A DNA stretch of 59,448 bases from a virus. Its lineage: Duplodnaviria > Caudoviricetes. How positions within the stretch are numbered: position 1 is the first letter of the stretch; the number at the start of each line of letters is the position of its first letter. The stretch spans positions 1-59,448 of the IMG/VR virus record IMGVR_UViG_3300032820_000008. One strand, written 5' to 3'. Positions 11,001-43,200 of this stretch are shown here, piece by piece. The notes beneath the pieces are model-generated. The model ran no database searches. It was not told the DNA's origin and worked only from the letters and a program-made list of their open reading frames with translations. A program made the position numbers and the translations under genes.

Positions 11001-12231
11001 TCAGAGGGCGTTGAGTACCCTTGCTGATCTCGGCGTAACGCCGGAAACCGCAAGCAAATGGGATAAATTTGAAGCCGCTGATTCCGCGTTTCGCTTAGGC
11101 CAATTGAAAAACCAACGACCGAAACGTAAATTTGGTCGGTTGGGTTTCCCATTCGGGCCTTTAACAGCGGTTACGCAAGGCGCTATTACTAGCCTTACTC
11201 CTACATCTGGTACACCTAGTATATCTGGTCCTGCCGCTCGTGTTCCCGGCTATGCTTTAGGTGGCAGCATTGGTGGCTCCGGTGGTGGACGGGGCGGGTT
11301 ACCTGCTAATACCATGTTTAGTGGCATGTTTGGTGGTCCCGGTGGTGCATTTAGTGGACCAACTACTCCTACTCCTCCTCCTAGTCAAGCGTATCAAGAT
11401 TTTCTCCGCCAACGCGATTATCCGAAAGAACAAATGGGCGCTACCACCCTTACTCCTACTCCTACACCTACTACTCCTACACCTCCTAGTTTTGTTGGTA
11501 GCGGATGGGGTGCATTAAATAATGTTATGCCTGCTCCTCCCCCTGCTCCTTTCCCTGTTCCTCCACCTACAGGTGGGTTTTCGGGGCCGAAAATACCGAG
11601 ATTACCACCGGGAGTAGCAGATGATTGGAGGGAAACAATGCCACCGAGAATACCGAGATTACCATCGGGAGTAGCAGATGATTGGAGGAGAACAGTGCTG
11701 CCGCCGACGGTAGATCCTGTGCAGGACATGGAAGCCTATGTAAGGCAGCAAAGGGAGATACCAAGGCTGGGCGGGAGAGCTGGTACACCGGAATTTGATA
11801 CGTTCATGCAGCAATTTACTCCCCCTGCTCCTCCTGTAGGGATGGGGTCATCTCAACTTACTTACCAACGTGAACCTTCATTGCCTCAGCAAATTACTGG
11901 TTCAGGACTTGCTCCTATTGGAAGTCCGCAGTGGGTACAACAGCAAATACGCGCTGGTGTGCTTCCGAGACCCCGTTATGCTTCAGGTGGCTTAACAACT
12001 GGCCGAGGTGATGGTATGAGCGATGAAATAATGACGACGATTGCAGGGCAGCAACAAGCGGCCTTATCTCCTGGTGAATTCGTTGTGCCAGCAGATGTAG
12101 TTTCAGGCATTGGTAACGGCGATACGAATTCCGGTGCTAAACGTCTGTATGCCATGATGGACAACATACGTGGCGCACGAACAGGTAAAACTAAACAACC
12201 CCAAAGAATTAACCCAAGGTTGCCAACATGA
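8068..12231 (+). CDS. Internal virion (ejection) protein with large low-complexity insertions, 1387 aa
   Basis: Ordered-looking ends (GRGTDSALVHM..LTINPETGLPE; GDGMSDEI..LSPGEFVVPADVVS) flanking Pro/Ala/Thr repeats. Confidence 0.65.
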   Translation: MDQRNLVAGIASLGRGTDSALVHMSPSEVQALQQLAEQHGGSLTINPETGLPEAGFLSNLLPLIAGLGLSVVSGGALSPLMTGMLMGGGAGIASGGDLRKMAKWGLGGYGGASLGAGLTAAGATPAATTAGTTGTAAGAFNPNAVPGLSSAVSTPAGGAPAFMGGTGTVTNLVGGAPVASLSGRAVTGGTFSAIPGAAAAPSFSLDQIGTNFGTAVEGVGKLGSPAGQAAFTGAVEAGGIPGLGVKTAALAGLGSMALEQPEPFEEVEVGGKKVGYPAYSPLDRQTTFDESVNLADSAERDYFSEPVYKPYDPSVDPYTPLYEPDPMATAAQGGIVSLRGGGPVLDPTMRAEARSPLFGQYTPTPAPVAAPRAAIIPAQRPIAGFDNGGSVGEQSYFTNISGQNTDPDEASTTNPYMSGFGLWSPHPLYPNLPTPGYRVSPGSSNTGTFSARTAADLGVNTSTTANTANTANTANTANTANTANTANTANTANTDSSEQNYFADRSLDTSGGGYPPGITTAADRTSYDAIVKAGSPEAQARAAAQRATWPAQLAASNAAMNPGTAVELGTNWQTRGPNTNPLNVLPANTMFSGYFNATPPPLTSAQYHANPAAVGNIGGKTPSQRQAEYYASTGGTPTGAPNAITPTGAPAGAPSAPGLTGAGGGIVSLQTGGSVGSAFSHGLPTNTMFSGMFGGPGGAYRGPTTPAAATTPAAATTPSFVGSGWGALNNVIPAATTPAAATPAAATIPAGFNLPIPGYLVGPGGAYRSPTTPAAATTPVAATTPVAATTPVAATTPAATTPAATTPAATTPVNYADDSVWNKMVSTASDDHARLTGGLNRTPAEVQATATQAAPIGSPQWVQAQFGETLANPQWQNEVQAAANVGRHASLTGDDRRYFGAYRVAPGALGLRTGNVPFGTEGWINPGYHPTRNASGYQRFDAKNQFGSGLERAIDAQAGAGIFDAYYARPEWRSHDQGQRALSTLADLGVTPETASKWDKFEAADSAFRLGQLKNQRPKRKFGRLGFPFGPLTAVTQGAITSLTPTSGTPSISGPAARVPGYALGGSIGGSGGGRGGLPANTMFSGMFGGPGGAFSGPTTPTPPPSQAYQDFLRQRDYPKEQMGATTLTPTPTPTTPTPPSFVGSGWGALNNVMPAPPPAPFPVPPPTGGFSGPKIPRLPPGVADDWRETMPPRIPRLPSGVADDWRRTVLPPTVDPVQDMEAYVRQQREIPRLGGRAGTPEFDTFMQQFTPPAPPVGMGSSQLTYQREPSLPQQITGSGLAPIGSPQWVQQQIRAGVLPRPRYASGGLTTGRGDGMSDEIMTTIAGQQQAALSPGEFVVPADVVSGIGNGDTNSGAKRLYAMMDNIRGARTGKTKQPQRINPRLPT
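9457..9549 (+). repeat. Perfect 9-bp tandem repeat (ACTGCTAAT)x10 encoding (TAN)10
   Basis: Read directly from the sequence. Confidence 0.95.
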
Positions 12232-29937: not shown

Positions 29938-30600
29938 TTATCCTCTCCCATTATATTCACAGTCTAAAACCGGACAGAATTTACGACAAGTGAAGTTAGA
30001 AGTAGGATTCCAAGTATCTGCTTCAAAAGACATATTTAATCTATCTAATTCAGTGTCCCAACTGGCCCAATAATTTTCCTCGTCTTTCCTGTAAAAATTA
30101 GCTTTTTTAAATTCTTCTGAAACCAAAAATAGTAACCCTCCTTTAACACATTCAACCTCTGGAAAATGACTAAAAATAGCAAGAGATAGTATTTCCAGTT
30201 GTTTAGTATCTGCATATTTTGCGGACTTGCCGGTTTTGTAATCTACTAACAAGGCGTTTTTATTATCTACAGAAATAAAATCAGCCACGCCTCGCCACCA
30301 TGCTTCCTTATCCCAAAAATCGCAGGGTTCCAAATCAGCAGTTAGAGCCATCTTATGCTCAAAAAATTTATCCCCGGCTGCACCCAACAAAATATCTATA
30401 TGAGGCTGAATAAACTTATGTTCCTCTGGTATCTCTTTGTTATCGCGCCCGTATTCCTCGGCAACTTGGTGGACTTCTTTACCGTATGTTAGATGACGCG
30501 ATTCCGGCTCTACTATATCTTTTAATATACGTAAGCGATAAAACTTACGGGCACATTGCGTAAACAAAGATAGCGACGAATAGGACCAACAAAAATTCAT
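29938..30600 (-). CDS. Cas4-like PD-(D/E)XK exonuclease
   Basis: WSYSSL..F.QC, G..D...VDYKTGK, QL, and C-terminal CxxC-x4-C (Fe-S staple). Confidence 0.85.
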   Translation of the reverse strand: MNFCWSYSSLSLFTQCARKFYRLRILKDIVEPESRHLTYGKEVHQVAEEYGRDNKEIPEEHKFIQPHIDILLGAAGDKFFEHKMALTADLEPCDFWDKEAWWRGVADFISVDNKNALLVDYKTGKSAKYADTKQLEILSLAIFSHFPEVECVKGGLLFLVSEEFKKANFYRKDEENYWASWDTELDRLNMSFEADTWNPTSNFTCRKFCPVLDCEYNGRG

Positions 30601-31100
30601 TCTGGCGGGACTCCCCCCGTAAGCCACTCGAAGAACAATTCCCGCTCTTCCCCGTCTTGGGTGTAGGTCAGCGGGGTCAGATTTACCTCTCCCAGTGGAC
30701 CGTCAATCAGTGCATACAGGCTTCCATCATTATTGCGAACTGCGTACAACACCGACTCCCGACTGAGCATAACCTCGAACGGACTACGATCCAGCCCAGC
30801 ACGTCGGCCTTTCACCTTGAAAAATTCTTTACGCATAATTAATTTCCTTTCCTGTAGAATTCTTGCCCATGCCTGTTTAATTATTTTGTTACCCTCTCCA
30901 TAATCTTCTCTTTCGTCAACCAACGTTTGGATAATTCTAACTGCTTTACTCCAAGGCATTTGCGTTTCTGAGTTTTGTTTGTATTCTTTTTCTATTTCTG
31001 CTATCGAGAAATCCTCCCACCGTTTTTCTATTCGGTCTTGTTCTTCTTCCCTAACGGTGTAATCTTTTCTTAACCAAGGCATTTTTGAAGTATTAATCAT
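30597..31100 (-). CDS. Hypothetical protein
   Basis: ORF with overlapping start/stop junctions on both sides. Confidence 0.6.
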   Translation of the reverse strand: MINTSKMPWLRKDYTVREEEQDRIEKRWEDFSIAEIEKEYKQNSETQMPWSKAVRIIQTLVDEREDYGEGNKIIKQAWARILQERKLIMRKEFFKVKGRRAGLDRSPFEVMLSRESVLYAVRNNDGSLYALIDGPLGEVNLTPLTYTQDGEERELFFEWLTGGVPPE

Positions 31101-32929
31101 CAGCATTCTCCGTAAGATTGACCTACCCCAATATCACAATTAAGTGGTAGTCCTGTTGCCCATTCTGGTGAAGTCTTCATGATGGTTTTTATATAACTTT
31201 GTGCTTTCTCTTGCTCTGCTTCTTCTACAACACACACAATAGAGTCATGCACCGTTAATGCGACCTTATATTTTTTTGAAATTTTGAGCATCTGCCATGA
31301 AATAATACATCGTGCGATAGCTTGGCAAACATTCTCTATAACTTTACCGCCGTATATTTTTGTACGTGTGTTATTTTTGGATAGATACGAATATTCATAA
31401 TCTTTAGTGCGTTCTAACTCTGGGTAGCTCAACATCATCTTATTTGGTAGCACAAAACCAACATCCCCATTTATTGCACTCTCATCTAAATATACTACCT
31501 GTGGTTGTACACCAAGTGTTTCCGTTTGGTTGTCTAGCATTGCATTCAAACAGATTTGTCCATCGCTCCATAAAGCAGGTATTTGCGAATAATTACTTCT
31601 ATATGTATTGATAATTCGTTTAGCCTCTTCAAACTCTATCTCAACATCAAAGCCCCATAATTGCGCTTTGAATTTTTTAGCCCCCATGCCATAGCCTGAC
31701 CCTAGAACAACACTTTTACCTACAAACCTTTCGGATTTTGATATTTCAGAAATAGGTTTGTCATATATAGTCGCAGCCATAATTTTGTAAACATCTTGTT
31801 CCGCTGCGAAGGCTTCGACTAAATCATTTTGACCAGCAAGCCATGCTAATACTCTTGCTTCTATTTGTGCAGAATCAGCGTCAATGATTAGATATTTTTC
31901 CGGTGCAGTAATTGCTTTCTTAATGGTATTACCCTTTCGAGTTGGTAGGTTTTGCATATTAAGCTTATCGCTACCTCCCCACCGTCCTGTATGAGCAGCG
32001 TAGTATCGGAGAGGTACGGGTAAAATTCCTGTGCGCTTAGCAATACCAAGCAATCGTTCCGTCCGTGTTTCTTCAATTGTAGACTTAATGCCTATACGGG
32101 CCGAAACTAATGTTTGAACCGCAATGTTAGGATGTTCTCGTAATTCCTGCATTGCGACATCATTTTTTGCGAAAGCAAAAGTTTTCTTCCCAGTGCGAGG
32201 AGATATTTTGGTAGGTGGTATTACACCTAGTGTTTTTAAATACTCAGCAAACTTAGGGTTGGATTGGAGCGTTTCACTATCAGCGTTAGCCGCAGCCATT
32301 AACTCCGCTTTCATATCTTGTATGGCCCTAAGATGCTGCTCTAGCAGTGGGACGTCTAGTTCTAAAACGGGTTCGCTGAACATTTTTATGGTCAGGCTAA
32401 CTATCTCCAGTTCTTCATAGCTGAAGTGTTTTCCATACAAGCGAAATAATCTAAAACATAACTCAACATCGTTGATGCAGTATTTTCCGTACTGTTCTAG
32501 TTCTTCAGTATCAAAATCCTTTCTTTGTTTACCTAATGCAGCTACGACTTCAGTTCCCTTTCGCCCCAACTTATATCGGGCAGCGGCAGCAGCTAAACTA
32601 TGTTTCACATTAACGCCGTCAATAGCCCTCGACATCGATAATGTATCCGCAATACGTTTGGGCTTTATATTAAATTGCCACGAAAGAATGGCAGCATCGA
32701 ACATAGCGTTATGCGCTACCATGATGGAGTTGTCCCAATCTATTTCGTCTAAGTAATTTTGTATATCGGAGTGTTCGCCACTACACCATGTTGATTCTTT
32801 CGCGTTTATTTTTGTAGCGACACCAATTGCTTCAAAACGATAGTCCCGAATATATTCTTCAGTTGTGAGTTTTGACAAGCTGTATTGCTTGTCGTAAAAA
32901 GTTTCAAAATCAAGCGTAACTATTTGCAT
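31100..32929 (-). CDS. polA: DNA polymerase, family A, with 3'-5' exonuclease
   Basis: LDFET and AHNAMFD (exonuclease); HTGRWGG, DSAQIEAR (motif A), RFVGKSVVLGSGYG (motif B), TVHDS (motif C). Confidence 0.95.
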   Translation of the reverse strand: MQIVTLDFETFYDKQYSLSKLTTEEYIRDYRFEAIGVATKINAKESTWCSGEHSDIQNYLDEIDWDNSIMVAHNAMFDAAILSWQFNIKPKRIADTLSMSRAIDGVNVKHSLAAAAARYKLGRKGTEVVAALGKQRKDFDTEELEQYGKYCINDVELCFRLFRLYGKHFSYEELEIVSLTIKMFSEPVLELDVPLLEQHLRAIQDMKAELMAAANADSETLQSNPKFAEYLKTLGVIPPTKISPRTGKKTFAFAKNDVAMQELREHPNIAVQTLVSARIGIKSTIEETRTERLLGIAKRTGILPVPLRYYAAHTGRWGGSDKLNMQNLPTRKGNTIKKAITAPEKYLIIDADSAQIEARVLAWLAGQNDLVEAFAAEQDVYKIMAATIYDKPISEISKSERFVGKSVVLGSGYGMGAKKFKAQLWGFDVEIEFEEAKRIINTYRSNYSQIPALWSDGQICLNAMLDNQTETLGVQPQVVYLDESAINGDVGFVLPNKMMLSYPELERTKDYEYSYLSKNNTRTKIYGGKVIENVCQAIARCIISWQMLKISKKYKVALTVHDSIVCVVEEAEQEKAQSYIKTIMKTSPEWATGLPLNCDIGVGQSYGEC

Positions 32930-33435
32930 TGGTTTTCTTCGCCAAAGCAATCTTTAAGAATTTCTTCTAATTCCTGCGTTGGGTCATCTCCATAATGGGG
33001 GTGTATTGGCTCATCTTCATACCCCGGATACCCTTTTAAATGACCTTGTAACTGACCGCAATATTCATCCATTTCAGGATCAGGATGATCTCTATAGTCT
33101 TCTTCTTTTTTTGAAGTATATCCCCCACCCACTAATGTGCTATAAATTATTTTTCTAGTGGCTTCCCGTTTATGATTGTACAGAGCAGCCTTTATTGCTA
33201 TTCGCTCTATCGGATTAAAAGTACCCGCTTCTAGGATATTTACCCATTTCTCAAAATCGTCCGGTGGGGGCGCTTCTGAATTAAAATCCCATGTTCGTGC
33301 GATGTCGTCTTTTAGCTTGTCGTCAACACAACGCTGTATTATCTCTGCTTTAGTATCCATGTTCCCCAGAATTATTTTTGTGTCTGAGCAACAAAAGGGA
33401 TACAACAGCTTAAAAATTAATCGAGATACCGTCAT
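32920..33435 (-). CDS. Hypothetical protein
   Basis: 171-aa ORF with AAGGGG RBS, in the replication operon. Confidence 0.6.
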   Translation of the reverse strand: MTVSRLIFKLLYPFCCSDTKIILGNMDTKAEIIQRCVDDKLKDDIARTWDFNSEAPPPDDFEKWVNILEAGTFNPIERIAIKAALYNHKREATRKIIYSTLVGGGYTSKKEEDYRDHPDPEMDEYCGQLQGHLKGYPGYEDEPIHPHYGDDPTQELEEILKDCFGEENQCK

Positions 33436-33484
33436 TATAATTCCCCTTTATGTTTTTGTTGTCGTCGCCCCCGCTCACAATTTC

Positions 33485-33790
33485 TTACCAGTTCCCTTCC
33501 CCCGTCTGTAGAAGCTCTCTCAAATCTTGCTTACTCATTGCTGGTTCTGAGTAAATAATAGCGAGACCGCCTGCATCTTTTATAGCTTGGAGTTCTCTTT
33601 CCTGTAGGGCAGTTGTTTTTCCAGAACCAGCTTTACACTCGATGCCAATGAATTGCCCATCAAGACATGCAACTACATCGGGAATCCCGCTGCGACCATA
33701 GCCACCTGTAGCAGGATAAAAATAATAAGCGTTCAATGCTCTAAGTACAGCAACTACATTTCCCTTAACTTTCTTTTCTGGAGTAGTCAT
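33485..33790 (-). CDS. VRR-NUC family nuclease (Holliday-junction resolvase-like)
   Basis: E..V...GIPD...FIGIECKA...TALQ motif. Confidence 0.85.
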   Translation of the reverse strand: MTTPEKKVKGNVVAVLRALNAYYFYPATGGYGRSGIPDVVACLDGQFIGIECKAGSGKTTALQERELQAIKDAGGLAIIYSEPAMSKQDLRELLQTGEGNW

Positions 33791-33975
33791 CGTGAGTAGG
33801 GCTTTCCAATCTTTATGCGTATCATGTTACCTGACGCCCACACTTTAGAAGTTTCTAAGCTTTGAAAAATTAAGGGGAAAACTAAGAAACACCAGATTGG
33901 ATTTTCACGATACAGCCTCGGCATCGCCGGAATATATGCGTCACCCCACCATATTCTCTCCTGTTCATGGAACAT
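33787..33975 (-). CDS. Hypothetical small protein
   Basis: ORF coupled by ATGA overlap to the VRR-NUC gene. Confidence 0.45.
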   Translation of the reverse strand: MFHEQERIWWGDAYIPAMPRLYRENPIWCFLVFPLIFQSLETSKVWASGNMIRIKIGKPYSR

Positions 33976-34099
33976 AATTTAGTACCCCTGTCCACCAGCC
34001 AAGGTAATACGCTATACCTAATACGACAGCAATACCTACTGTAATCGCCAAGACTTCAACGCCTGTTATCAAGATGGGTGTTTGGGGAGGTTTTTTCAT
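33965..34099 (-). CDS. Small single-TM protein (44 aa); absent from ORF track
   Basis: MKKPPQTPILITGVEVLAITVGIAVVLGIAYYLGWWTGVLNYVP; starts 2 nt after array 1 and overlaps the next start codon. Confidence 0.5.
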   Translation of the reverse strand: MKKPPQTPILITGVEVLAITVGIAVVLGIAYYLGWWTGVLNYVP

Positions 34100-34101
34100 A
34101 A

Positions 34102-34542
34102 ACGCTCGCTCTCTCTATTTGGTTCTCTCGCTAATGATGGCTCGCTCCGGCCCTGTGGTTCTCTCAACAAAAATGGCTCGCTCTCGCTCCTTGGTTCTCT
34201 CAACAAAAATGGCTCGCTCGCGCTGCGTGGTTCTCTCAACGCGCTTGGCTCGCTCCCTATACCTGGTTCTCTCAAGAGCCGTGGCTCGCTCGCGTTTCCT
34301 GGTTCTCTCCACGTCAATGGCTCGCTCGCTAATTTTGGTTCTCTCTACGACGCTGGCTCGCTTTCCTTTTCTGGTTCTCTCAACTGCCTTGGCTCGCTCG
34401 CTAATTTTGGTTCTCTCAAGAGCCGTGGCTCGCTCTTGGTTTGTGGTTCTCTCACTTTAACTGGCTCGCTCTTGGATTGTGGTTCTCTCTAATTAAGTGG
34501 CTCGCTCAAGAGCCTTAGTTCTCTCTGACGTGATGGCTCTTA
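34102..34542 (-). ncRNA. TIGR-like guide-RNA array 1 (stand-alone): 12 x 36-nt units GAGCGAGCCA-N8-GAGAGAACCA-N8
   Basis: TGGCTCGCTC and TGGTTCTCTC alternate every 18 nt on the + strand with variable 8-mers between; exact 36-nt period; same repeats as the array next to the Nop-domain gene. Confidence 0.9.
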
Positions 34543-34547
34543 TACAG

Positions 34548-34576
34548 AGTATACCAAAGAGAAATTAAATCCTCAA
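34548..34576 (-). promoter_or_regulatory. Sigma70 promoter of array 1: TTGAGG-N17-TATACT with TG extended -10
   Basis: cctcaa at 34571-34576 and agtata at 34548-34553; predicted start near 34541 coincides with the first (truncated) repeat. Confidence 0.75.
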
Positions 34577-34596
34577 CGCTTACTAATAGTAGAGCA

Positions 34597-34620
34597 TAAA
34601 AAACCCCGCCGGAGCGGGGT
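34597..34620 (-). terminator. Rho-independent terminator
   Basis: ACCCCGC-CGGA-GCGGGGT hairpin with a U-tract on the - strand. Confidence 0.75.
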
Positions 34621-34950
34621 AAAACGTCAAGGAGTAAACGTTAACCAATATCGTAGAGGGTAATGTTCGGCATGGGGACAACGCCGAGTATTACTAATAC
34701 CGGTCACGCGAAAGTGTATCACGAACCTCTATCGGCCGAACTAAAATATCTCGTATATATTCTGTAGTACCCACAGCTAAGATTTCACTGACAGAAATCA
34801 CAAAAAAGGCTATTAAAATTTCAATCTGTCACGGGTGAAAACCCTGTCCGAATAGTTAAAATCCCGTTTATCCCCCCTACCATCCCCCTTACTTAACCTG
34901 AGATCGTCGCTTAGAACGCAACTACGGCGGTCGAATTTTCTTGCAAACAT

Positions 34951-34977
34951 AAAAAAACCCCGCCGAAGCAGGGTTTT
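34951..34977 (-). terminator. Rho-independent terminator ending the early operon
   Basis: aaaaaaaccccgccgaagcagggtttt hairpin plus U-tract. Confidence 0.7.
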
Positions 34978-35025
34978 AATAAATTAGAGGCTAAACTCTG
35001 TGACATTTTGTCACAGAGTTTAGGG

Positions 35026-35226
35026 TTAGTTATCTCTGCGTTCGGTTAGCTTTTTTAACCAAATCTTCACCCGCGTCTTGAAGCCCATCTTCAAGTCTTT
35101 GTAATCCCGCATACTTGCAGGGGGATGTTGCGTTTCGTCCACAGTAAATGACGTTAGATTCTCGCGAATGCGTTCCATGCGTACTTCGCTTGGAGTTATC
35201 GTATGTAGTGTTTGTTTACATGTCAT
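35026..35226 (-). CDS. Hypothetical small protein
   Basis: AAGGAG RBS; 66 aa. Confidence 0.6.
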   Translation of the reverse strand: MTCKQTLHTITPSEVRMERIRENLTSFTVDETQHPPASMRDYKDLKMGFKTRVKIWLKKLTERRDN

Positions 35227-35241
35227 TCTATTACTCCTTCT

Positions 35242-36444
35242 TTAGTATTCCACATTGTCATCAAGAAAATAAAACACCTGACCGTCTTGGCCTCCCTTAA
35301 GTAGGGCATCGTAAGTCGCTGGCTTTTCATACCGTCCAAGCCCTACATTCGGAATGTAATTTAATACAGGGTCATGCGGACCTAAGTCAGCATATGCACC
35401 CATATCACCGTCACTTTGCAAACCAATATTTAAGACAGCAATTTTTTCACTAGCACTTGCGTTCTCATTTATAAAGCTGTCCAGATTTGGGAAGTATGAA
35501 CGCTCAAATTTTGTAGGCCAATCACTATAGAAAGTCACTACATCAGTGGTGAGGTCATGACATACCACGCGCTTTACACTGTCTTTAAAAATATTAAAGA
35601 ATCTATCGTGTACCTCGTATGGTTTTTTAAGGGCAGCTATGGCCTCACTTTCCTTCCTTATAAAGGTAGCCATAAAATCCTTATCAAATATAAACTCCGG
35701 TAAAATAGATTCCGATGTAGCGGGATCATATTTAGAAGTGTCAATGTGATCAAAGAATATAGTAATTGCGTCCCTATACTTCCGTGTAAAGTTGCTTATG
35801 CTAGAACGCATAGCCATTTTTGTCGTCCCTAAATGACGGTCATCAGCAGGTAAGTTACCAGATAAAACAGTGCTAAAAATCGAATCGATTGCAGAAAGTA
35901 TGCGTTTTCCCACGCCTTTCCCATACCATTTATGACATTGATAAGTTAGGGAAGTGAGATTTTTTACACTTATCATATTCGTAGAATCGGAGAAATACCC
36001 TCCAAGTCCATTGTTAATTTGTAGTTGTGACCTTGCCCTCCTTCTAACTGCTTTAGACGTAATAGCAATAACGATAGAATCGCGTTTGCCACCGTGCGCA
36101 CAACCGGCAGAAACACATTCAGGATGCTGTGAATGATGCAACGCAGAGATATCAAATATGCTGACGATTCCCAGATAGCTCCCCGTAACCGTATCGTATA
36201 GTTGTAACCCATGTATGTACTCGTCGTCGTGGAAAATGAATTGGGAATCTGCCCAATCTAACACGGTGGCATCCGACATCGAATGTGACAGCTCCCCGTA
36301 AAAAGCTTTCCCACGTACAAACCCCGTAACACTTCGGGGGTCATCACCCCGCTTTGTTACTACTTCTTTAACACACCTAATCACATATTCCATGCGTGGA
36401 TCTATCGCTAAGTTTTCTGGATTTTTTATAATAATGTCTGACAT
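35242..36444 (-). CDS. Hypothetical protein (400 aa) between the two arrays
   Basis: Strong TAAGGAG RBS; no motif recognised. Confidence 0.75.
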   Translation of the reverse strand: MSDIIIKNPENLAIDPRMEYVIRCVKEVVTKRGDDPRSVTGFVRGKAFYGELSHSMSDATVLDWADSQFIFHDDEYIHGLQLYDTVTGSYLGIVSIFDISALHHSQHPECVSAGCAHGGKRDSIVIAITSKAVRRRARSQLQINNGLGGYFSDSTNMISVKNLTSLTYQCHKWYGKGVGKRILSAIDSIFSTVLSGNLPADDRHLGTTKMAMRSSISNFTRKYRDAITIFFDHIDTSKYDPATSESILPEFIFDKDFMATFIRKESEAIAALKKPYEVHDRFFNIFKDSVKRVVCHDLTTDVVTFYSDWPTKFERSYFPNLDSFINENASASEKIAVLNIGLQSDGDMGAYADLGPHDPVLNYIPNVGLGRYEKPATYDALLKGGQDGQVFYFLDDNVEY

Positions 36445-36447
36445 AAT

Positions 36448-36515
36448 TTACTCCTTAAGAGCTGAACTCCGTGACAAAATGTCACAGAGTTCAGCGGGTT
36501 ATTGTCGTTTAACTA
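36448..36515. repeat. Direct repeat (RBS plus palindrome) bounding the Tas/array cassette, copy 1
   Basis: Near-identical to 37786-37852. Confidence 0.85.
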
Positions 36516-36516
36516 A

Positions 36517-36960
36517 TGGCTCGCTCATTGGCGATGGTTCTCTCTCAATAATTGGCTCGCTCTGCCTTTTTGGTTCTCTCATCCGTCATTGGCTCGCTCT
36601 GAAGGTTTGATTCTTTCGGTGCTTGTGGCTCGCTCTGACCCTATGGTTCTCTCATTCGAACTGGCTCGCTCCTTTCTTTTGGTTCTCTCATGCCCCGTGG
36701 CTCGCTCCGAAACGTTGGTTCTCTCGTGCCCCATGGCTCGCTCACGCTGTTTGGTTCTCTCTTCCGTCATTGGCTCGCTCTAGCCCTTTGGTTCTCTCAT
36801 CCGAAATGGCTCGCTCTAACCCTTTGGTTCTCTCAGGCGGTATGGCTCGCTCCGGCTTGTTGGTTCTCTCTGGCGGTATGGCTCGCTCTGAAACGTTGGT
36901 TCTCTCGTGTCAATTGGCTCGCTTACTAGCAATGGTTCTCTCTCGATCATTGGCTCGCTC
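36517..36960 (-). ncRNA. TIGR-like guide-RNA array 2: 12 units (ten of 36 nt, two of 37 nt) plus a terminal repeat
   Basis: 13 copies of TGGCTCGCTY alternating with 12 copies of TGGTTCTCTC (one variant), with variable 8-9 nt spacers; begins 4 nt after the stop of the Nop-domain gene. Confidence 0.92.
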
Positions 36961-36964
36961 TAAG

Positions 36965-37780
36965 TTAGAACGGTGGCTCGATTTTATGAGCATGGCCCTC
37001 ATGCACCATGACGTATGGTGCCGGTGGCAATTTATCAAACTCATGCCGATACCAGACCTCATGAAGGTGCGATAGGAAAATCTTGACAGCATAGCGTTTG
37101 GCTCGCGCATGAATATGTGCTGGAGGCAACTTGCCTATGATGTAGGCTTTGTAGGCATCCGTTTTCTTACCTATATTATATTTTTCCAGCTTCGCTTTCG
37201 CTTGCTCAGAAAAAAGACCCTCGTCGTTTTTCTTTAACTCAATCTCCTTGCGTGTCTTATATAACGCACCATAGAAGTCGTCGTCGTGGTTGCTCACCTT
37301 CACAAAGCTCTCGCCCAACTTCCAGCACAATGTCTTTAACTCCGCATTGTGTGGACGCTTCTTTCCCTTGTCCCATTTCGCAGTGGGGTCGAGACCGGCA
37401 AATCGCCAGATAGCTCCAGCAGTAGGAGCTTGTTCTATATCTATATGTGCAATCAGACCAGCAGCTATAACTGGGCCAATGCCAACGACCGTGCGAACGC
37501 GCCGACCAATGGGGTGAGCATCGGAGTACACGTCCAACGAAGCACGTACACTTTTCTCCAAAATGTCTGCCTGAGTAGACAGCCAGCCTAATACTTCATG
37601 TGGTTCTTCTTTCATTGACCTAATTTGATTATTAGAACGAATACGATTGCCCTGCATTTGGTAATACGCATCGACTAAAAACCGTGCTTCAGCATCAGAT
37701 AAAGTTCTGGATGCAACACGCAAATCACGGGACAGTTGTGTGACCGACATAGTGATTTCAGTGGTTTCAGTAATATTCAT
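36965..37780 (-). CDS. tasA: Tas protein (Nop / IS110-C-terminal-like RNA-binding domain); no nuclease domain seen, TasA-like
   Basis: Coiled coil (LVDAYYQMQGNRIRSNNQ), helix-hairpin 'VGIGPVIAAGLIAHI', 'IWRFAGLDP', 'HNAELKTLCW', 'HARAKRYAVKIFLSHL'; no N-terminal DEDD RuvC domain and no IS110 catalytic SG motif; adjacent 36-nt dual-repeat array. Confidence 0.85.
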   Translation of the reverse strand: MNITETTEITMSVTQLSRDLRVASRTLSDAEARFLVDAYYQMQGNRIRSNNQIRSMKEEPHEVLGWLSTQADILEKSVRASLDVYSDAHPIGRRVRTVVGIGPVIAAGLIAHIDIEQAPTAGAIWRFAGLDPTAKWDKGKKRPHNAELKTLCWKLGESFVKVSNHDDDFYGALYKTRKEIELKKNDEGLFSEQAKAKLEKYNIGKKTDAYKAYIIGKLPPAHIHARAKRYAVKIFLSHLHEVWYRHEFDKLPPAPYVMVHEGHAHKIEPPF

Positions 37781-37785
37781 TGAAC

Positions 37786-37852
37786 TTACTCCTTAAGGCT
37801 GAACTCTGTGACAAAATGTCACAGAGTTCAGCGGGTTATTATCATGTAACTA
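37786..37852. repeat. Direct repeat (RBS plus palindrome) bounding the Tas/array cassette, copy 2
   Basis: Near-identical to 36448-36515; contains the perfect inverted repeat GCTGAACTCTGTGACA-AAA-TGTCACAGAGTTCAGC. Confidence 0.85.
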
Positions 37853-38104
37853 TAGTTCGCCAAATTCGCCGTATTGATTTTCATCGGCCAACTCTGCCAT
37901 CGGTTCCTCATGCTTACTGTCAAATAGGTCCAGTTGGTTTTTGGAACCCTTTTTGCCATGCTGCACAAGTAGGTAGCTAATGACTTCGTTGTACGATAAA
38001 CGCGAGCCTAGATGTTTCTGTAGTTGTACGTTCACTTCATCTAGTCCCGTCTTAACTTCAGCCGACACCGCGATAGCTTCGCGGCTTCTCTTCTTCGTGG
38101 TCAT
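37850..38104 (-). CDS. Small putative DNA-binding protein (ribbon-helix-helix-like)
   Basis: 'AIAVSAEVKTGLDEV...LSYNEVISYLL' fits a beta-helix-helix pattern. Confidence 0.45.
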   Translation of the reverse strand: MTTKKRSREAIAVSAEVKTGLDEVNVQLQKHLGSRLSYNEVISYLLVQHGKKGSKNQLDLFDSKHEEPMAELADENQYGEFGEL

Positions 38105-38114
38105 AGTTATCTCC

Positions 38115-39542
38115 TCACTTAATTGTGATTAAACTTCCGAACGTCGGTACGAATTCAGAATTCCCACCGCGCTCAATTACAGCCCATAGAACTGGGATAC
38201 CAAGTTTCTCCCAATCCCCCTCGCTATCCCCATAAAAATACCCATCAGTAAATATAATTACCGCATTAATATCTTGGTATTCGCCGGTTAGTATTTTGTC
38301 CTCGACCTGTCTAAAAACACAGCTTGGATCTGTGCCACCACCACCTATCGGCTTGGTCGAATCTTCAAGATTTGCATACGACATTTCGTCGTAGGTTTCC
38401 TCTCCTTGAACACTATAATCCCAATAAACGAGATGAACTTTTTCAGGCATGACATCCATAGCTATTGTCTTAAATTCCGATAGGAACTTATCAATATCAG
38501 AGAACACCGAACCGGACGTATCCATTGCCACAACCATCTGTCCAGCTTTTTCGTCAAGCATGGATGGCATATAAATATCCGAACCGATAAGTCGTCGGTT
38601 ATATTTACGCCAGGTTGTCTGACCACCACCCTTCACTTGTTGTTTTATAAACTCAGCAAGGATTTCCTGCCACGGTGTTTCGACTGCCAGTAATTTAACA
38701 ACAGCTTTAGCAATGCCATCGCTGCCGGTCCCTGCTACCTCCGCAGCTTGGCGAATAGCACGGTCCAACTCGTTGTTGTCCTTCTCTAATTCTTCGGCAG
38801 TTTTTTCCTCGTCGTAGTTGTGGTCGTCGTGCTGGTCCTCGGCACGTTTCCTAATCTTCTCGGAGTATTTTGCTGGTCCTTTTTTATTACTATGATGAAA
38901 CTTTTCTTCGTCCTCCTCTGGTTCTTCTGTTTCATTATCATCGTCATCATTTGGAGGAATAGGATATCCACCAGGAGGGCATGGTCCGTTTTTGCCTGGT
39001 GGTACTGGAGGAGGAGTAACACCTTTTTTACCCTTCTTAGGAACAGTCCCTTGCTTTTCCTCATTCTCAAGCAAGAGAATATCCACCACCTGCTTAGAAT
39101 CCATGTTTATAAATTGGTCATCTAACAGGCACGCTGGCATACCTTTTTTCGGTCCCTCCTTATATCGTGGTATCCGTAAGAACTTTTCGTCCGGGTCCAA
39201 ATCCCTAAGCATGGGATTAATTACGTAGTCATTCGCCATGTTTGTTAGCAACGCATACTTTTCGCGTAACTTTTTCCAGATGAACAGATGTTTGTAGACC
39301 TTGTGCATACACTCATGGAGAACAACAAACATTAACTCCTTGTCATCCAATGTCTGCACAAACGCTGGGTTGTAGTAGGTGTTGATACCATCGGTCGCAG
39401 CCGTTGGTACTTCATCGGTGAATATAGTTTCACCGTGCAGAAGCATACTCCCGAAAAATCTAAGTTTCGGTATCTGCATACAGCGAACGTGTGTACGTTC
39501 GACGCGCTGTTGCGCGGTGTATTCTGGATTTTGTAATCCCAT
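38115..39542 (-). CDS. Metallopeptidase-VWA protein (DUF2201-like)
   Basis: PTAATDG, LHECMH (HExxH), ANDYVIN; MIDAS DTSGS, GGGTD, FTDG. Confidence 0.88.
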   Translation of the reverse strand: MGLQNPEYTAQQRVERTHVRCMQIPKLRFFGSMLLHGETIFTDEVPTAATDGINTYYNPAFVQTLDDKELMFVVLHECMHKVYKHLFIWKKLREKYALLTNMANDYVINPMLRDLDPDEKFLRIPRYKEGPKKGMPACLLDDQFINMDSKQVVDILLLENEEKQGTVPKKGKKGVTPPPVPPGKNGPCPPGGYPIPPNDDDDNETEEPEEDEEKFHHSNKKGPAKYSEKIRKRAEDQHDDHNYDEEKTAEELEKDNNELDRAIRQAAEVAGTGSDGIAKAVVKLLAVETPWQEILAEFIKQQVKGGGQTTWRKYNRRLIGSDIYMPSMLDEKAGQMVVAMDTSGSVFSDIDKFLSEFKTIAMDVMPEKVHLVYWDYSVQGEETYDEMSYANLEDSTKPIGGGGTDPSCVFRQVEDKILTGEYQDINAVIIFTDGYFYGDSEGDWEKLGIPVLWAVIERGGNSEFVPTFGSLITIK

Positions 39543-39557
39543 GATTCTTACTCCTTC

Positions 39558-40430
39558 TTAGAAACTAAATTTGTCCATGATGTCATCGACCTTCTCTTTG
39601 AGAATTTCGCGTGCATCACTGAACTGTTTTATGTCGTCAATATCAGCGGTCTGCAAAACCCTATGCAATTCGAGTCGTGCATTCTCCATCTCTTGGTCCC
39701 CGGTAAGATTGAACGCTTTCATCAAATCGACCAGCTTTTCGGCGTTGGTCAGCATTGACTCGTGGTAGCGTTTTTGCGCCCCATCTTTAGCCTCTACCAT
39801 ATTCTTAGATATAGTTTGGAGAACTTTGTGGAAGCGCCCCCATACATCTTTCATTGAAGTTTCAAGACGTTCTTTGGATGCTGTCTCATACTGCTCGTCG
39901 AGTTCCTTCCGAGCCTCGTTGCCTATATCTATTCTAAAATCACCAGACTCTGCGACAGGTGCGTAGACGCACTTAAACTTAAATTTCCTCATGACCTCCT
40001 CATCATGCTCAGGGTAGTCAAACTCTCTCCACAGGTTGCCCAGTTTCGCCTTGGCTTCTATGCACAAATCCGGCAGCTTTATCTCAAACTGGGTAACGAG
40101 TTCCAAGAACTCGTCGCGTGCTTCGCCTATCTCGGTCTGATGCTCAATCAGTTTGGCGTTGGGTAACAGCCGTGTCCCGCTGTCATTCCACGGCAGCGTT
40201 AACTGCATGTTCCGGTTCCGTATCATGGACGCCTTTTTGATTATCGTATGCAGCGTTTCGCTACCCGCATAGATATCCTTGGTAACTTTCGCTATGCGTT
40301 TGTTAGCGGTGTAGTTATCCTCATTAACCTTGTCGGATTTTTCCTTATCAATTTTCCTCCCTGTCGGTACACTAATACTTAGGTCCACAAGAACGGCTGA
40401 ACTGCTGATACTTCTGCTTTCAAAATTCAT
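39558..40430 (-). CDS. DUF3150-like helical protein
   Basis: 'TLPW...G.RLLP', 'DYP', 'NLTGD..ME'; typical partner of AAA/DUF2201 gene pairs. Confidence 0.55.
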   Translation of the reverse strand: MNFESRSISSSAVLVDLSISVPTGRKIDKEKSDKVNEDNYTANKRIAKVTKDIYAGSETLHTIIKKASMIRNRNMQLTLPWNDSGTRLLPNAKLIEHQTEIGEARDEFLELVTQFEIKLPDLCIEAKAKLGNLWREFDYPEHDEEVMRKFKFKCVYAPVAESGDFRIDIGNEARKELDEQYETASKERLETSMKDVWGRFHKVLQTISKNMVEAKDGAQKRYHESMLTNAEKLVDLMKAFNLTGDQEMENARLELHRVLQTADIDDIKQFSDAREILKEKVDDIMDKFSF

Positions 40431-40490
40431 GGTATTTATTCCTTAGTTTAATTAAACGATGAACTGCGTGACAAAATGTCACAGAGTTCG

Positions 40491-42145: not shown

Positions 42146-42221
42146 GGTTTTAATTACTCCGTTTAGTGCTGAACTGTGTGACAAAATGTCACGGAGTTCG
42201 GGGTTAATTTCATGTTAGTGG

Positions 42222-42532: not shown

Positions 42533-42561
42533 ATTATAGCACGATTACTTATGAATGTCAA
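42533..42561 (-). promoter_or_regulatory. Consensus sigma70 promoter TTGACA-N17-TATAAT (extended -10) driving the AAA/VWA/Tas operon
   Basis: tgtcaa at 42556-42561, attata at 42533-42538, TG upstream of the -10. Confidence 0.85.
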
Positions 42562-42599: not shown

Positions 42600-43200
42600 T
42601 ATTACACACTATTTATACTAGGAAATAAACAATGTGACCTAACCGACAATGTTAAGTCGTTGAAAAGTAAGTTTTGTTCCTATTGTGACTAATGTCGGGA
42701 AGTGTATACACCCATGTGAGAATGGGGAGAAAAGTTTATTTTTTTAGTCACAATAGGAACTTTGTGTGCAATGTTCTCTCTCTCTATAAATAATCATAGT
42801 TTCATACGACCCCCCTTTCTATCTTCTACATAAGGCTAAAGGCCTTCGCTCTTTAGTTTTCCCAGAAGTACTAAAAACCCAGTCACATTAGGAACAAAAG
42901 GAACAAAGCTTTAAAATCAACAGGTTAATAATGTGATTTTAGTCACAGTTGCACTGCACCAAAATCACATTATAAAAACAACTTCGTTTGACCTGGAATT
43001 CAGTTTCTGCTATTAATGCCTGAGCATTAATAGCAGAAACCTTGCTGCTTTTTGGGAACTGGTTTGGCATAGCAAACCTTGTGACATTCTGTCACAGAGT
43101 TCGAGGTGAACTTCGTGACGAAAACCAGCGAATCTTGTGACATTTTGTCACAGAGTTTGTCCTGTTTTGTCACAGAGTTTGCAAGGTCCGCATAGTTCAC
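42600..43200. other. Non-coding repeat-rich region, putative replication origin
   Basis: Several inverted repeats, AGTCACAWTAGGAAC iteron-like motifs, an IHF-like site, AT-rich, no ORFs. Confidence 0.5.

What the first reader, a model, noticed from the sequence alone, without database searches (positions are those of the whole stretch)
34102..34620. Second, stand-alone guide array with its own promoter at the head of the replication operon
Seen: about 2 kb from the first array lies another 12-unit array with identical repeats but different spacers. A TTGAGG-N17-TG-TATACT promoter places +1 at about the first truncated repeat, and a terminator just upstream (34597-34620) insulates it. No terminator is visible after the array: a 44-aa ORF starts 2 nt past the last repeat and leads into the VRR-NUC, PolA and Cas4-like genes. 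Inference: one Tas protein uses two independently regulated guide sets (24 guides), and array processing would also define the 5' end of the replication mRNA.
Basis: partly seen in the sequence, partly recalled or inferred. Interest (0 to 1): 0.85.

Follow-up and report, generated by a model that had tools for sequence, protein, structure and literature searches.

The report
Second TIGR guide array heading replication operon
A marine phage carries a second twelve-guide TIGR array, about 2.4 kb from its only Tas gene, inside the untranslated leader of its DNA-replication operon; this is a real but fairly ordinary layout variant of a recently described RNA-guided system.

Summary
On the minus strand, 34102-34541 is a 12-unit dual-repeat TIGR array. 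Its edge repeat is GAGCGAGCCA, its loop repeat GAGAGAACCA, and its spacers are 8 nt. The repeats match the 12-unit array at 36517-36960, which sits next to a 271-aa TasA gene, and the two arrays share no spacer. The terminator, the promoter-like site and the ORF starting 2 nt after the array are all present.

Relatives change the interpretation. The promoter belongs to the replication operon, not to the array. Relatives at 83-89% identity keep it and carry 21, 1 or 0 units at the same place.

The lack of a terminator is normal in this TasA family: 1 of 85 array ends has one within 90 nt. Arrays 7-59 kb from tas also occur in other phage records.

TasA keeps the Tyr/His pair that processes guides in SpTasH, so it could plausibly release guides and trim the downstream mRNA. 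This is untested.

I found no target for any guide. Transcription is not shown, because the RNA-library evidence consists of contigs only.

Verdict: a new member of the known TIGR-TasA kind, with a detached array embedded in an operon. Interest is moderate.

The parts
34102..34541 (-). Detached dual-repeat TIGR array ('S' array). It starts with a 5'-truncated edge (AAGAGCCA), has 12 units of 36 nt (spacer A 8 nt, loop GAGAGAACCA, spacer B 8 nt, edge GAGCGAGCCA), and ends with a degenerate edge GAGCGAGCGT.
34548..34576 (-). Sigma-70-type promoter TTGAGG-17-TATACT with an extended -10 TG. The predicted start is about 34541-34543, at the truncated edge repeat. It is conserved in relatives with 21, 1 and 0 units, so it is the promoter of the replication operon.
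34597..34620 (-). Intrinsic terminator (7-bp GC-rich stem plus T run) directly upstream of the promoter. A 91% identical copy lies at 34952-34974.
   Evidence: (D8)
33965..34099 (-). 44-aa hydrophobic (one membrane span) ORF whose ATG lies 2 nt after the array. It is conserved in L109 and L092 (61% aa). It has no clear ribosome-binding site apart from the purine-rich last repeat.
33787..33975 (-). 62-aa ORF. The likelier start is the ATG near 33951, which follows AGGAGAG. This is the first gene of the operon in the array-less relatives L115 and L117.
33485..33790 (-). 101-aa nuclease, Holliday-junction-resolvase or VRR-NUC-like.
31100..32950 (-). Family A DNA polymerase with a 3'-5' exonuclease domain.
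29938..30627 (-). PD-(D/E)XK nuclease. The Cas4 family match is below cut-off.
36965..37780 (-). tasA: a 271-aa Nop-domain Tas protein without a nuclease domain. Tyr256 and His263 align with the processing residues Y289 and H296 of SpTasH.
36517..36960 (-). tas-adjacent TIGR array ('T' array): 12 units, two of them with 9-nt spacers. It starts 4 nt after the tasA stop codon with a full edge repeat.
34954..34977 (-). Intrinsic terminator that ends the tasA / T-array / 400-aa / 66-aa transcription unit.
42533..42561 (-). Perfect consensus promoter (TTGACA-17-TATAAT with TG), the likely start of the operon that holds tasA and the T array.
35242..36444 (-). 400-aa ORF of no known family between the two arrays. 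It is a gene of this phage lineage (34% identical homologue in L092) and is not linked to tas in other phages.

Best explanation
The feature is a genuine dual-repeat TIGR array lying in the 5' leader of the phage's replication operon.

Proposed steps, all inferred:
1. Host RNA polymerase starts at the conserved sigma-70-type promoter (34576-34548), about 34541, at the 5'-truncated edge repeat.
2. It transcribes the 12 units and continues, with no terminator, into the small membrane ORF, the nuclease and the DNA polymerase genes.
3. TasA is made from a separate operon 2.4 kb upstream. It binds the box C (CCA) ends of the edge and loop repeats as a dimer.
4. Using its C-terminal Tyr/His pair, TasA cuts inside each edge repeat. 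This releases up to twelve 36-nt tigRNAs and leaves the replication mRNA with a short processed 5' end.
5. Together with the 12 guides of the tas-adjacent array, these RNAs direct nuclease-free TasA to 16-bp DNA sites, where it blocks transcription or other DNA transactions. The targets are unknown and are not in the phage itself.

Shown here: the array anatomy, the promoter's conservation, the absence of a terminator, the family and fold of TasA, and the variable unit number among relatives.
For: Array and repeat type:
- 24 repeat matches fall in the two arrays against 0.07 expected, with a strict 36-nt register.
- The repeats are of the same type as the experimentally processed SpTIGR array of Salicola phage CGphi29 (AAGCGAGCCA / AAGACAACCA, 8-nt spacers). 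They end in CCA, the box C of Faure 2025 (PMC12045711, section read).
- The array starts with a 5'-truncated edge and ends with a 3'-truncated edge, as that paper describes.

TasA:
- PDB sequence hits to TasH at 1.2e-10 and TasR at 3.9e-10.
- AlphaFold model with pLDDT 85.2. Its 10 best fold matches are all TasH or TasR chains, E 6e-8 to 3e-6.
- No room for a nuclease domain.
- Y256 and H263 align with SpTasH Y289 and H296 (residues named in PMC13421893, passages). H263 is invariant in 25 of 25 homologues.

Promoter:
- L092, found independently through the polymerase, keeps the -35 to +8 block at 88% identity as an island, and has one tigRNA unit at the same place.
- L109 has 21 units with 4-5 collinear shared units.
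- L115 and L117 have the same promoter and no array.
- A second detached array elsewhere (L024) also has TGGGTATAAT 7 nt before its truncated edge.

Other:
- Frame-breaking 9-nt spacers in the T array and in L109 argue against coding.
- A contig from an RNA library spans the array/ORF junction, 33960-34346.
- TasA proteins repress transcription when guided (bioRxiv 10.64898/2026.09.09.750476, section read).
Against: - Transcription, processing and TasA loading are not shown. The RNA-library data are assembled contigs that cover 22 of 30 bins of the 8-kb stretch laid, and may be carried-over DNA.
- The promoter match alone is no better than chance in this region.
- For the loci found with the promoter pattern, the -10 block is identical by construction. 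Only L091 and L092 are independent on that point.
- Relatives with 1 degenerate unit (L092, L120), a remnant (L091) or none (L115, L117) show that the operon works without the array. The array may be decaying or dispensable.
- Unit 1 has a loop ending CTA instead of CCA, and the last edge is degenerate. Both end units may therefore be processed poorly.
- Tas self-processing is shown for TasH only. TaTasR does not cut its own precursor.
Confidence: 0.62

Rival explanations
1. The array is mainly a cis-acting leader. TasA binding and cutting of the nascent leader tunes the stability or translation of the replication mRNA, and so couples replication genes to TasA levels. Under this reading the spacer content matters little.
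For: - The array abuts the first ORF by 2 nt with no terminator.
- In the related phages L062 and L071 an array is likewise followed directly by a small hydrophobic ORF and then the polymerase module.
- Cutting in the last edge would leave only about 7 nt of leader (sequence).
- The Tyr/His pair is present.
Against: - The operon exists with the same promoter and no array in L115 and L117.
- The 12 spacer pairs are all distinct, and the repeats are kept nearly perfect, as expected for guides.
- In 85 array ends of the family the absence of a terminator is general, so it carries no special signal here.
Confidence: 0.15
2. The array is a by-product of rearrangement: a split or duplicated part of a once single tas-adjacent array. 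It is transcribed passively, has no selected targets, and is on its way to loss.
For: - In L062 and L071 the order is tas, array, small hydrophobic ORF, polymerase. The window's order looks like that arrangement interrupted by about 2 kb of other genes.
- Relatives hold 1 degenerate unit, a remnant or none.
- No target was found.
Against: - 21 of 25 repeats are perfect, and the 36-nt register is exact over 432 nt.
- L109 has an even longer array of 21 units at the same place, with mostly different spacers. This shows turnover, not just decay.
- The truncated first edge sits at the predicted transcript start, as in canonical arrays.
Confidence: 0.2
3. It is not an RNA element at all. It is either a DNA-level repeat such as origin iterons, or a plus-strand ORF (128-136 aa) encoding a 12-residue repeat protein.
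For: - Open frames run through the array on the plus strand, 34074-34460 and 34082-34492.
- It lies in the replication module.
Against: - The same repeats lie directly after tasA, here and in dozens of other phage contigs.
- 9-nt spacers in the sister array and in L109 break any frame.
- All neighbouring genes are on the other strand.
- Cumulative GC skew has no extreme near 34 kb; its turning points are near 24 and 46 kb.
Confidence: 0.02

Closest known systems
SpTIGR-TasH of Salicola phage CGphi29 (NC_020844; Faure et al. 2025, PMC12045711; PMC13421893)
   Same: - Dual-repeat array with near-identical edge repeat (AAGCGAGCCA against GAGCGAGCCA) and a related loop repeat.
- 8-nt spacers and 36-nt units.
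- Nop-domain protein with the Tyr/His processing pair aligned.
- Phage-borne.
   Different: - SpTasH has an N-terminal HNH nuclease, and the window's protein has none.
- The Salicola array is single, lies directly after tasH, ends in a terminator and sits in the head-gene module.
- The window has two arrays in two transcription units, neither with a canonical terminator.
TasA systems (nuclease-free Tas), shown to act as RNA-guided transcriptional repressors (Xu et al. 2026, bioRxiv 10.64898/2026.09.09.750476)
   Same: - Solo Nop-domain protein.
- Arrays may lie upstream of tas, downstream of it, or on both sides (sections read).
   Different: - The repressor assays used MbTasA with engineered guides, and no native target or native promoter is known.
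- That paper states that sequence alone could not tell whether tas and the arrays share a promoter.
- Here the second array is separated from tas by three ORFs and two terminators, and shares its promoter with protein-coding genes.
Orphan or detached CRISPR arrays that use Cas proteins encoded elsewhere (recalled from general knowledge; no call)
   Same: A guide array away from its effector gene, presumably served in trans.
   Different: Different repeat architecture, different protein family and different processing. CRISPR arrays normally have their own leader and are not mRNA leaders.
Box C/D snoRNA clusters processed out of longer host transcripts (polycistronic snoRNAs are mentioned in PMC12045711; the rest is recalled)
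   Same: Nop-domain-bound guides with box C/D-like motifs, cut out of a transcript that also has another role.
   Different: Eukaryotic or archaeal. They target RNA for methylation. They are processed by other nucleases.

Membership tests
TIGR dual-repeat array (Faure 2025) | Two distinct alternating 8-12-nt repeats separated by spacers of about 9 nt (8-12), with units of about 36 nt | tested here: met
   10-nt edge and 10-nt loop repeats with 8-nt spacers; 12 units of exactly 36 nt
TIGR dual-repeat array (Faure 2025) | Edge and loop repeats share their end motifs (box C 'CCA' at the 3' end, a common 5' start) | tested here: met
   Both repeats start with GAG and end with CCA. Unit 1's loop ends CTA, as in L109.
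TIGR dual-repeat array (Faure 2025) | [quoted passage not shown] | tested here: met
   It begins with AAGAGCCA at 34541-34534. It ends GAGCG-AGCGT in the window, GAGCG-TTTAT in L109 and GAGCG-CTCAT in L092.
TIGR dual-repeat array (Faure 2025) | Followed by a rho-independent terminator ('typically') | tested here: not met
   None follows this array. The same holds for 84 of 85 array ends of this TasA family within 90 nt; the method found 3 of 3 positive controls.
TIGR dual-repeat array (Faure 2025) | Lies beside a tas gene (the published surveys used 5-kb flanks) | tested here: met
   tasA ends 2.4 kb upstream on the same strand, but three ORFs and two terminators lie between
TIGR dual-repeat array (Faure 2025) | Transcribed and processed into 36-nt tigRNAs bound by Tas | not testable with these tools
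   Only assembled contigs of RNA libraries could be laid. They show neither RNA ends nor sizes.
TasA (nuclease-free Tas protein) | Nop-domain fold with a coiled-coil dimerisation region, related to TasH, TasR and IS110 RNA-binding domains | tested here: met
   phmmer against PDB: TasH 1.2e-10, TasR 3.9e-10. Pfam Transposase_20 at 25.8 bits against a 21.3 cut-off. Fold search: all top 10 are TasH or TasR, followed by IS621 and ISCro4.
TasA (nuclease-free Tas protein) | No HNH or RuvC domain | tested here: met
   271 aa. The alignment starts about 45-50 residues into SpTasH, past its HNH part. The model is all-helical.
Self-processing dual-repeat Tas (Y/H dyad; PMC13421893, Xu 2026) | Tyr and His in the C-terminal loop (SpTasH Y289 and H296) | tested here: met
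   Y256 and H263 align with them. H263 is invariant in 25 of 25. Tyr is the majority residue but is Phe in L062 and L071. Catalysis itself was not tested.
Sigma-70 promoter | -35 and -10 hexamers at 16-18 nt, conserved among relatives, with a mapped start site | tested here: inconclusive
   9 of 12 with an extended -10. The -35, the spacing and the -10 are conserved in L092, L109, L115, L117 and L120. No start-site data.

The most novel reading that the evidence does not exclude
In this phage lineage guide production and replication-gene expression are physically coupled. One promoter makes a chimeric pre-tigRNA-mRNA, and TasA cleavage both loads a second, differently timed guide set and creates the 5' end of the replication mRNA. 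TasA would then feed back on replication. The 0, 1, 12 and 21-unit alleles at one homologous site, with shared units at both ends and different ones between, would record how TIGR arrays gain and lose units, by recombination inside repeats and not by addition at one end. Unit gain and loss is an open question for these systems.
Probability: 0.25. Interest if true: 0.65.

Novelty: new member of a known kind. Interest (0 to 1): 0.42.

Why it matters
TIGR-Tas systems were described in 2025, and their native biology is largely unknown. The authors themselves list what they target, how arrays are expressed and how arrays change as open questions.

This locus offers a natural case with three useful features:
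- One TasA gene serves two arrays in separate transcription units.
- One of those arrays is fused to the leader of an essential operon.
- Close relatives carry 21, 1 or 0 units at the same site.

That makes three things directly testable with simple constructs: separate promoter-driven expression of an array, TasA-dependent trimming of an mRNA, and the mode of array turnover.

It does not reveal a new kind of system, and it gives no clue to the targets.

Tried and rejected
Self-targets. I scanned the window, with the arrays masked, for 16-bp composite sites of all 24 guides. I used both possible geometries (A + revcomp B, which I deduced from the cleavage rules read, and the opposite), gaps of 0-2 and up to 3 mismatches. 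There were no hits with 0 or 1 mismatch. Hits with 2 mismatches numbered 3 and 2, against 2.3-2.9 for mispaired control guides.

Targets in related phage DNA.
- I tested 1217 unique neighbouring spacer pairs from all arrays against 1.02 Mb. Properly phased pairs gave 0 exact hits, and the counts were equal in the control geometry and the control phase.
- I tested 46 guides (24 from the window, 21 from L109, 1 from L092) against 1.24 Mb. There were 0 exact hits and 4 against 5 one-mismatch hits in the two geometries, about the number expected by chance.
- Host genomes could not be scanned, because the host is unknown. The nearest cultured phages infect Rhizobium and Pseudomonas at only 33% polymerase identity.

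Small membrane ORF as a general partner of arrays: rejected. 2 of 85 array ends have one, against 7 of 252 random places.

Origin-of-replication reading: no GC-skew extreme near 34 kb.

Rfam: nothing reaches a gathering score in 33000-38500. The weak matches are the terminators.

Phage database, DNA search of 33000-38000: no match.

Protein Atlas for the 400-aa ORF: no usable hit.

RNA libraries. Four runs were laid and only contigs are held. A part without cover means nothing, and DNA carry-over cannot be excluded.

Literature.
- The words 'orphan', 'multiple arrays' and 'second array' do not occur in PMC12045711.
- 'Orphan', 'standalone' and 'multiple arrays' do not occur in the 2026 preprint.
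- A library search for 'TIGR array' plus 'orphan' gave only an unrelated paper.
- Supplementary tables and figures of these papers (locus lists, fig. They may already show detached arrays.

Rows left out.
- The alignment A3 used 24 of the 33 TasA loci. L064 was dropped for a stop codon, and L060, L067, L075, L078, L079, L082, L086 and L089 were not included.
- The 85 array ends are arrays with at least 8 chained repeat hits and enough downstream sequence, de-duplicated. They include arrays that lie upstream of tas.
- Arrays of L062 and L071 fell below that threshold.

Full report
What is there.

The window is a 59,448-bp viral record, about 95% complete. Every long ORF between 29.9 and 41.6 kb, and all the genes named here, lie on the minus strand. 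Read on that strand, 34541-34102 is a regular array. It begins with a truncated repeat (AAGAGCCA) and then has twelve 36-nt units. Each unit is an 8-nt spacer, GAGAGAACCA, an 8-nt spacer, then GAGCGAGCCA. The last repeat is degenerate (GAGCGAGCGT).

A second array of twelve units with the same two repeats lies at 36960-36517. It starts 4 nt after the stop codon of a 271-aa ORF. The pattern loop-N8-GAGCG matches 24 times in the window, all in these two arrays, against 0.07 expected. All 24 spacer pairs differ, and no half-spacer is shared between the arrays.

This is the dual-repeat TIGR architecture of Faure et al. [quoted passage not shown] The repeats are close to those of the experimentally studied array of Salicola phage CGphi29 (AAGCGAGCCA / AAGACAACCA, 8-nt spacers).

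The protein.

The 271-aa ORF (36965-37780) matches solved TasH at 1.2e-10 and TasR at 3.9e-10. It also matches Pfam Transposase_20 above cut-off. A model built on 25 homologues (pLDDT 85.2) finds TasH and TasR chains as its ten best fold matches, followed by IS110-family recombinases.

It lacks the HNH part of SpTasH, so it is a TasA. Tyr256 and His263 align with Y289 and H296, the residues reported to cut pre-tigRNA in SpTasH (PMC13421893, passages; Xu et al. 2026 preprint). His263 is invariant in 25 of 25 homologues. Among the window's own ORFs this is the only Tas-like one; I ran no dedicated search of the rest of the record for another Tas.

Transcription units.

The scan finds a 12-of-12 consensus promoter at 42561-42533. 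It finds intrinsic terminators at 34977-34954 and 34620-34603. From this I read one long unit running from about 42.5 kb through tasA, the tas-adjacent array, a 400-aa ORF and a 66-aa ORF. A second unit starts at the promoter-like site TTGAGG-17-(TG)-TATACT at 34576-34548.

That site alone is weak evidence: the scan found 13 promoter-like sites in the 9-kb region scanned (31000-40000), against 17.6 in shuffles. Relatives make it credible.

Relatives.

L092 was found independently through its polymerase (86% aa). It has the same gene order and about 83% nucleotide identity. It keeps the -35 to +8 block as an island of 88% identity. A scan of metagenome contigs with the -10 block added five informative contigs:
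- L109, 89% identical upstream, with 3 differences in the 110 nt before the block.
- L120, like L092.
- L115 and L117, about 85% identical.
For these pattern-found contigs the -10 block is identical by construction. The -35 TTGAG(G/T/A) and the 17-nt spacing were not part of the pattern and are conserved as well.

What follows the promoter differs between contigs:
- Window: 12 units.
- L109: 21 units.
- L092 and L120: a single unit with degenerate edges.
- L091: a degenerate remnant.
- L115 and L117: no unit and no small membrane ORF; the promoter leads straight to the 62-aa ORF.

So the promoter is that of the replication operon. The array, together with the 44-aa ORF, is a variable insert in its leader. 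The window and L109 share 4-5 recognisable units in the same order: the first unit, the last spacer A, and two or three between. All other units differ.

Is the layout unusual?

Not within this family. I collected 54 stretches of viral DNA holding the same repeat pair and 33 loci encoding TasA relatives. Arrays lie on the tas strand, usually directly downstream of tas or on both sides of it.

Of 85 de-duplicated array ends, 1 has a terminator-like site within 90 nt and 2 within 150 nt. My detector found 3 of 3 known terminators, and random 90-nt windows gave 12 of 336. Most arrays are followed closely by an ORF. The missing terminator is therefore the family's habit, unlike the 'typical' arrays of Faure 2025.

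Detached arrays also recur:
- In a complete 104-kb record, an array of about 27 units lies roughly 59 kb from the only TasA-like gene.
- In a 116-kb record, arrays lie about 7 and 50 kb from it.
- In a related 60-kb record, an array lies about 7 kb from it.
One of these arrays has an extended -10 (TGGGTATAAT) 7 nt before its truncated edge, the same geometry as in the window. Another is wedged between two ORFs.

The two papers I read surveyed 5-kb flanks or 'surrounding' regions and do not use the word 'orphan' or the phrase 'multiple arrays'.

How it most likely works.

The shown and inferred steps are separated under Best explanation. The predicted start at A34541-34543 lies 2-4 nt before the expected mature 5' end (AGCCA). 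The three alleles all end in GAGCG, which fits a cut in the middle of the edge repeat. A cut in the last edge would leave an mRNA with about 7 nt before the ATG of the 44-aa ORF. These are inferences from sequence and from the SpTasH work. TaTasR was reported not to cut its own precursor.

A 387-nt contig from an oligo-dT RNA library spans the array/ORF junction. However, contigs from that library cover 22 of 30 bins of the 8-kb stretch laid, and may come from DNA.

Targets.

None was found in the phage itself or in 1.24 Mb of related phage DNA, in either pairing geometry. With 16-nt guides and an unknown host, nothing more could be tested.

Verdict.

'Its own promoter' should read 'the replication operon's promoter'.

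It is a new member of the TIGR-TasA kind in a detached, operon-embedded layout. It is useful as a natural test case for array expression and turnover, but it is not a new kind of system. Interest 0.42.

Noticed in passing
window 34994-35020, 36465-36491, 37802-37828, 40462-40488, 42172-42198, 43075-43101, 43131-43157: There are seven copies of a 27-nt perfect or near-perfect palindrome (AACTCTGTGACA-www-TGTCACAGAGTT), against 0 expected. All sit between genes of the minus-strand early/replication operon, and two are in tandem near 43.1 kb. They could be RNA hairpins (processing or stability sites without a U tract) or operators of a dimeric repressor.
   Followed up: partly
window 36461-36515 and 37798-37852: 55-nt direct repeats, 93% identical and including the palindrome, flank exactly tasA plus its array (1337 bp apart). 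The tas-array pair therefore looks like a cassette that could be gained or lost by recombination between these intergenic elements.
   Followed up: no
window 34102-34541 and 36517-36960: Half-spacers recur within an array in new combinations. Spacer A of units 4 and 8 is identical, as is spacer A of units 10 and 11, and spacer B of units 4 and 6. The tas-adjacent array holds near-identical families (TACCGCCA/TACCGCCT, ACGTTTCA/ACGTTTCG, AAGGGTTA/AAGGGCTA). This suggests unit duplication and recombination within repeats as the way these arrays change.
   Followed up: partly
window 34499-34541: Spacer B of unit 1 (AGGCTCTT) is complementary to the truncated first edge (AAGAGCC). The 5' end of the transcript could therefore fold into a 7-bp hairpin that encloses spacer A and the first loop repeat. 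The same holds in L109.
   Followed up: no
window 34813-34950, with terminators at 34954-34977 and 34603-34620: A 45-aa ORF without a ribosome-binding site lies between two 91% identical terminators. Its ATG sits in the T run of the first terminator. It is 92% identical at protein level in L092 and may be non-coding conserved DNA.
   Followed up: no
records G003 (L038, L044), G001 (L009, L024) and G004 (L049): Other phage records hold arrays of the same repeat family 7 to about 59 kb from their only TasA-like gene. One such array has about 27 units, and one has an extended -10 box just before its truncated edge.
   Followed up: partly
L062 4949-5884: In this related phage the tas reading frame stays open about 100 nt past the end of homology and runs into the first array units. 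This resembles the intragenic units mentioned in the 2026 preprint.
   Followed up: no
L071 5166-6101 and 7017-7943: The polymerase gene of this relative matches in two pieces about 900 nt apart. This suggests an inserted element (intein, intron or homing endonuclease gene).
   Followed up: no
L123-L130 (genome contigs): The exact edge-N8-loop repeat pair also occurs in contigs of Acidobacteria, Gemmatimonadota and Burkholderiales genomes from soil-type MAGs. This repeat type is therefore spread far beyond marine phages.
   Followed up: no
window 35242-36444: The 400-aa ORF between the two arrays has no Pfam or PHROG family and no Atlas look-alike. A 34% identical homologue sits at the same place in L092, and there are none next to tas in other phages.
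   Followed up: partly
window 9456-11568: There are several short in-frame-length tandem repeats (periods 9, 12, 15, 18, 39) rich in ACT/GCT/CCT codons. They probably encode a low-complexity Thr/Ala/Pro-rich stretch of a structural protein.
   Followed up: no
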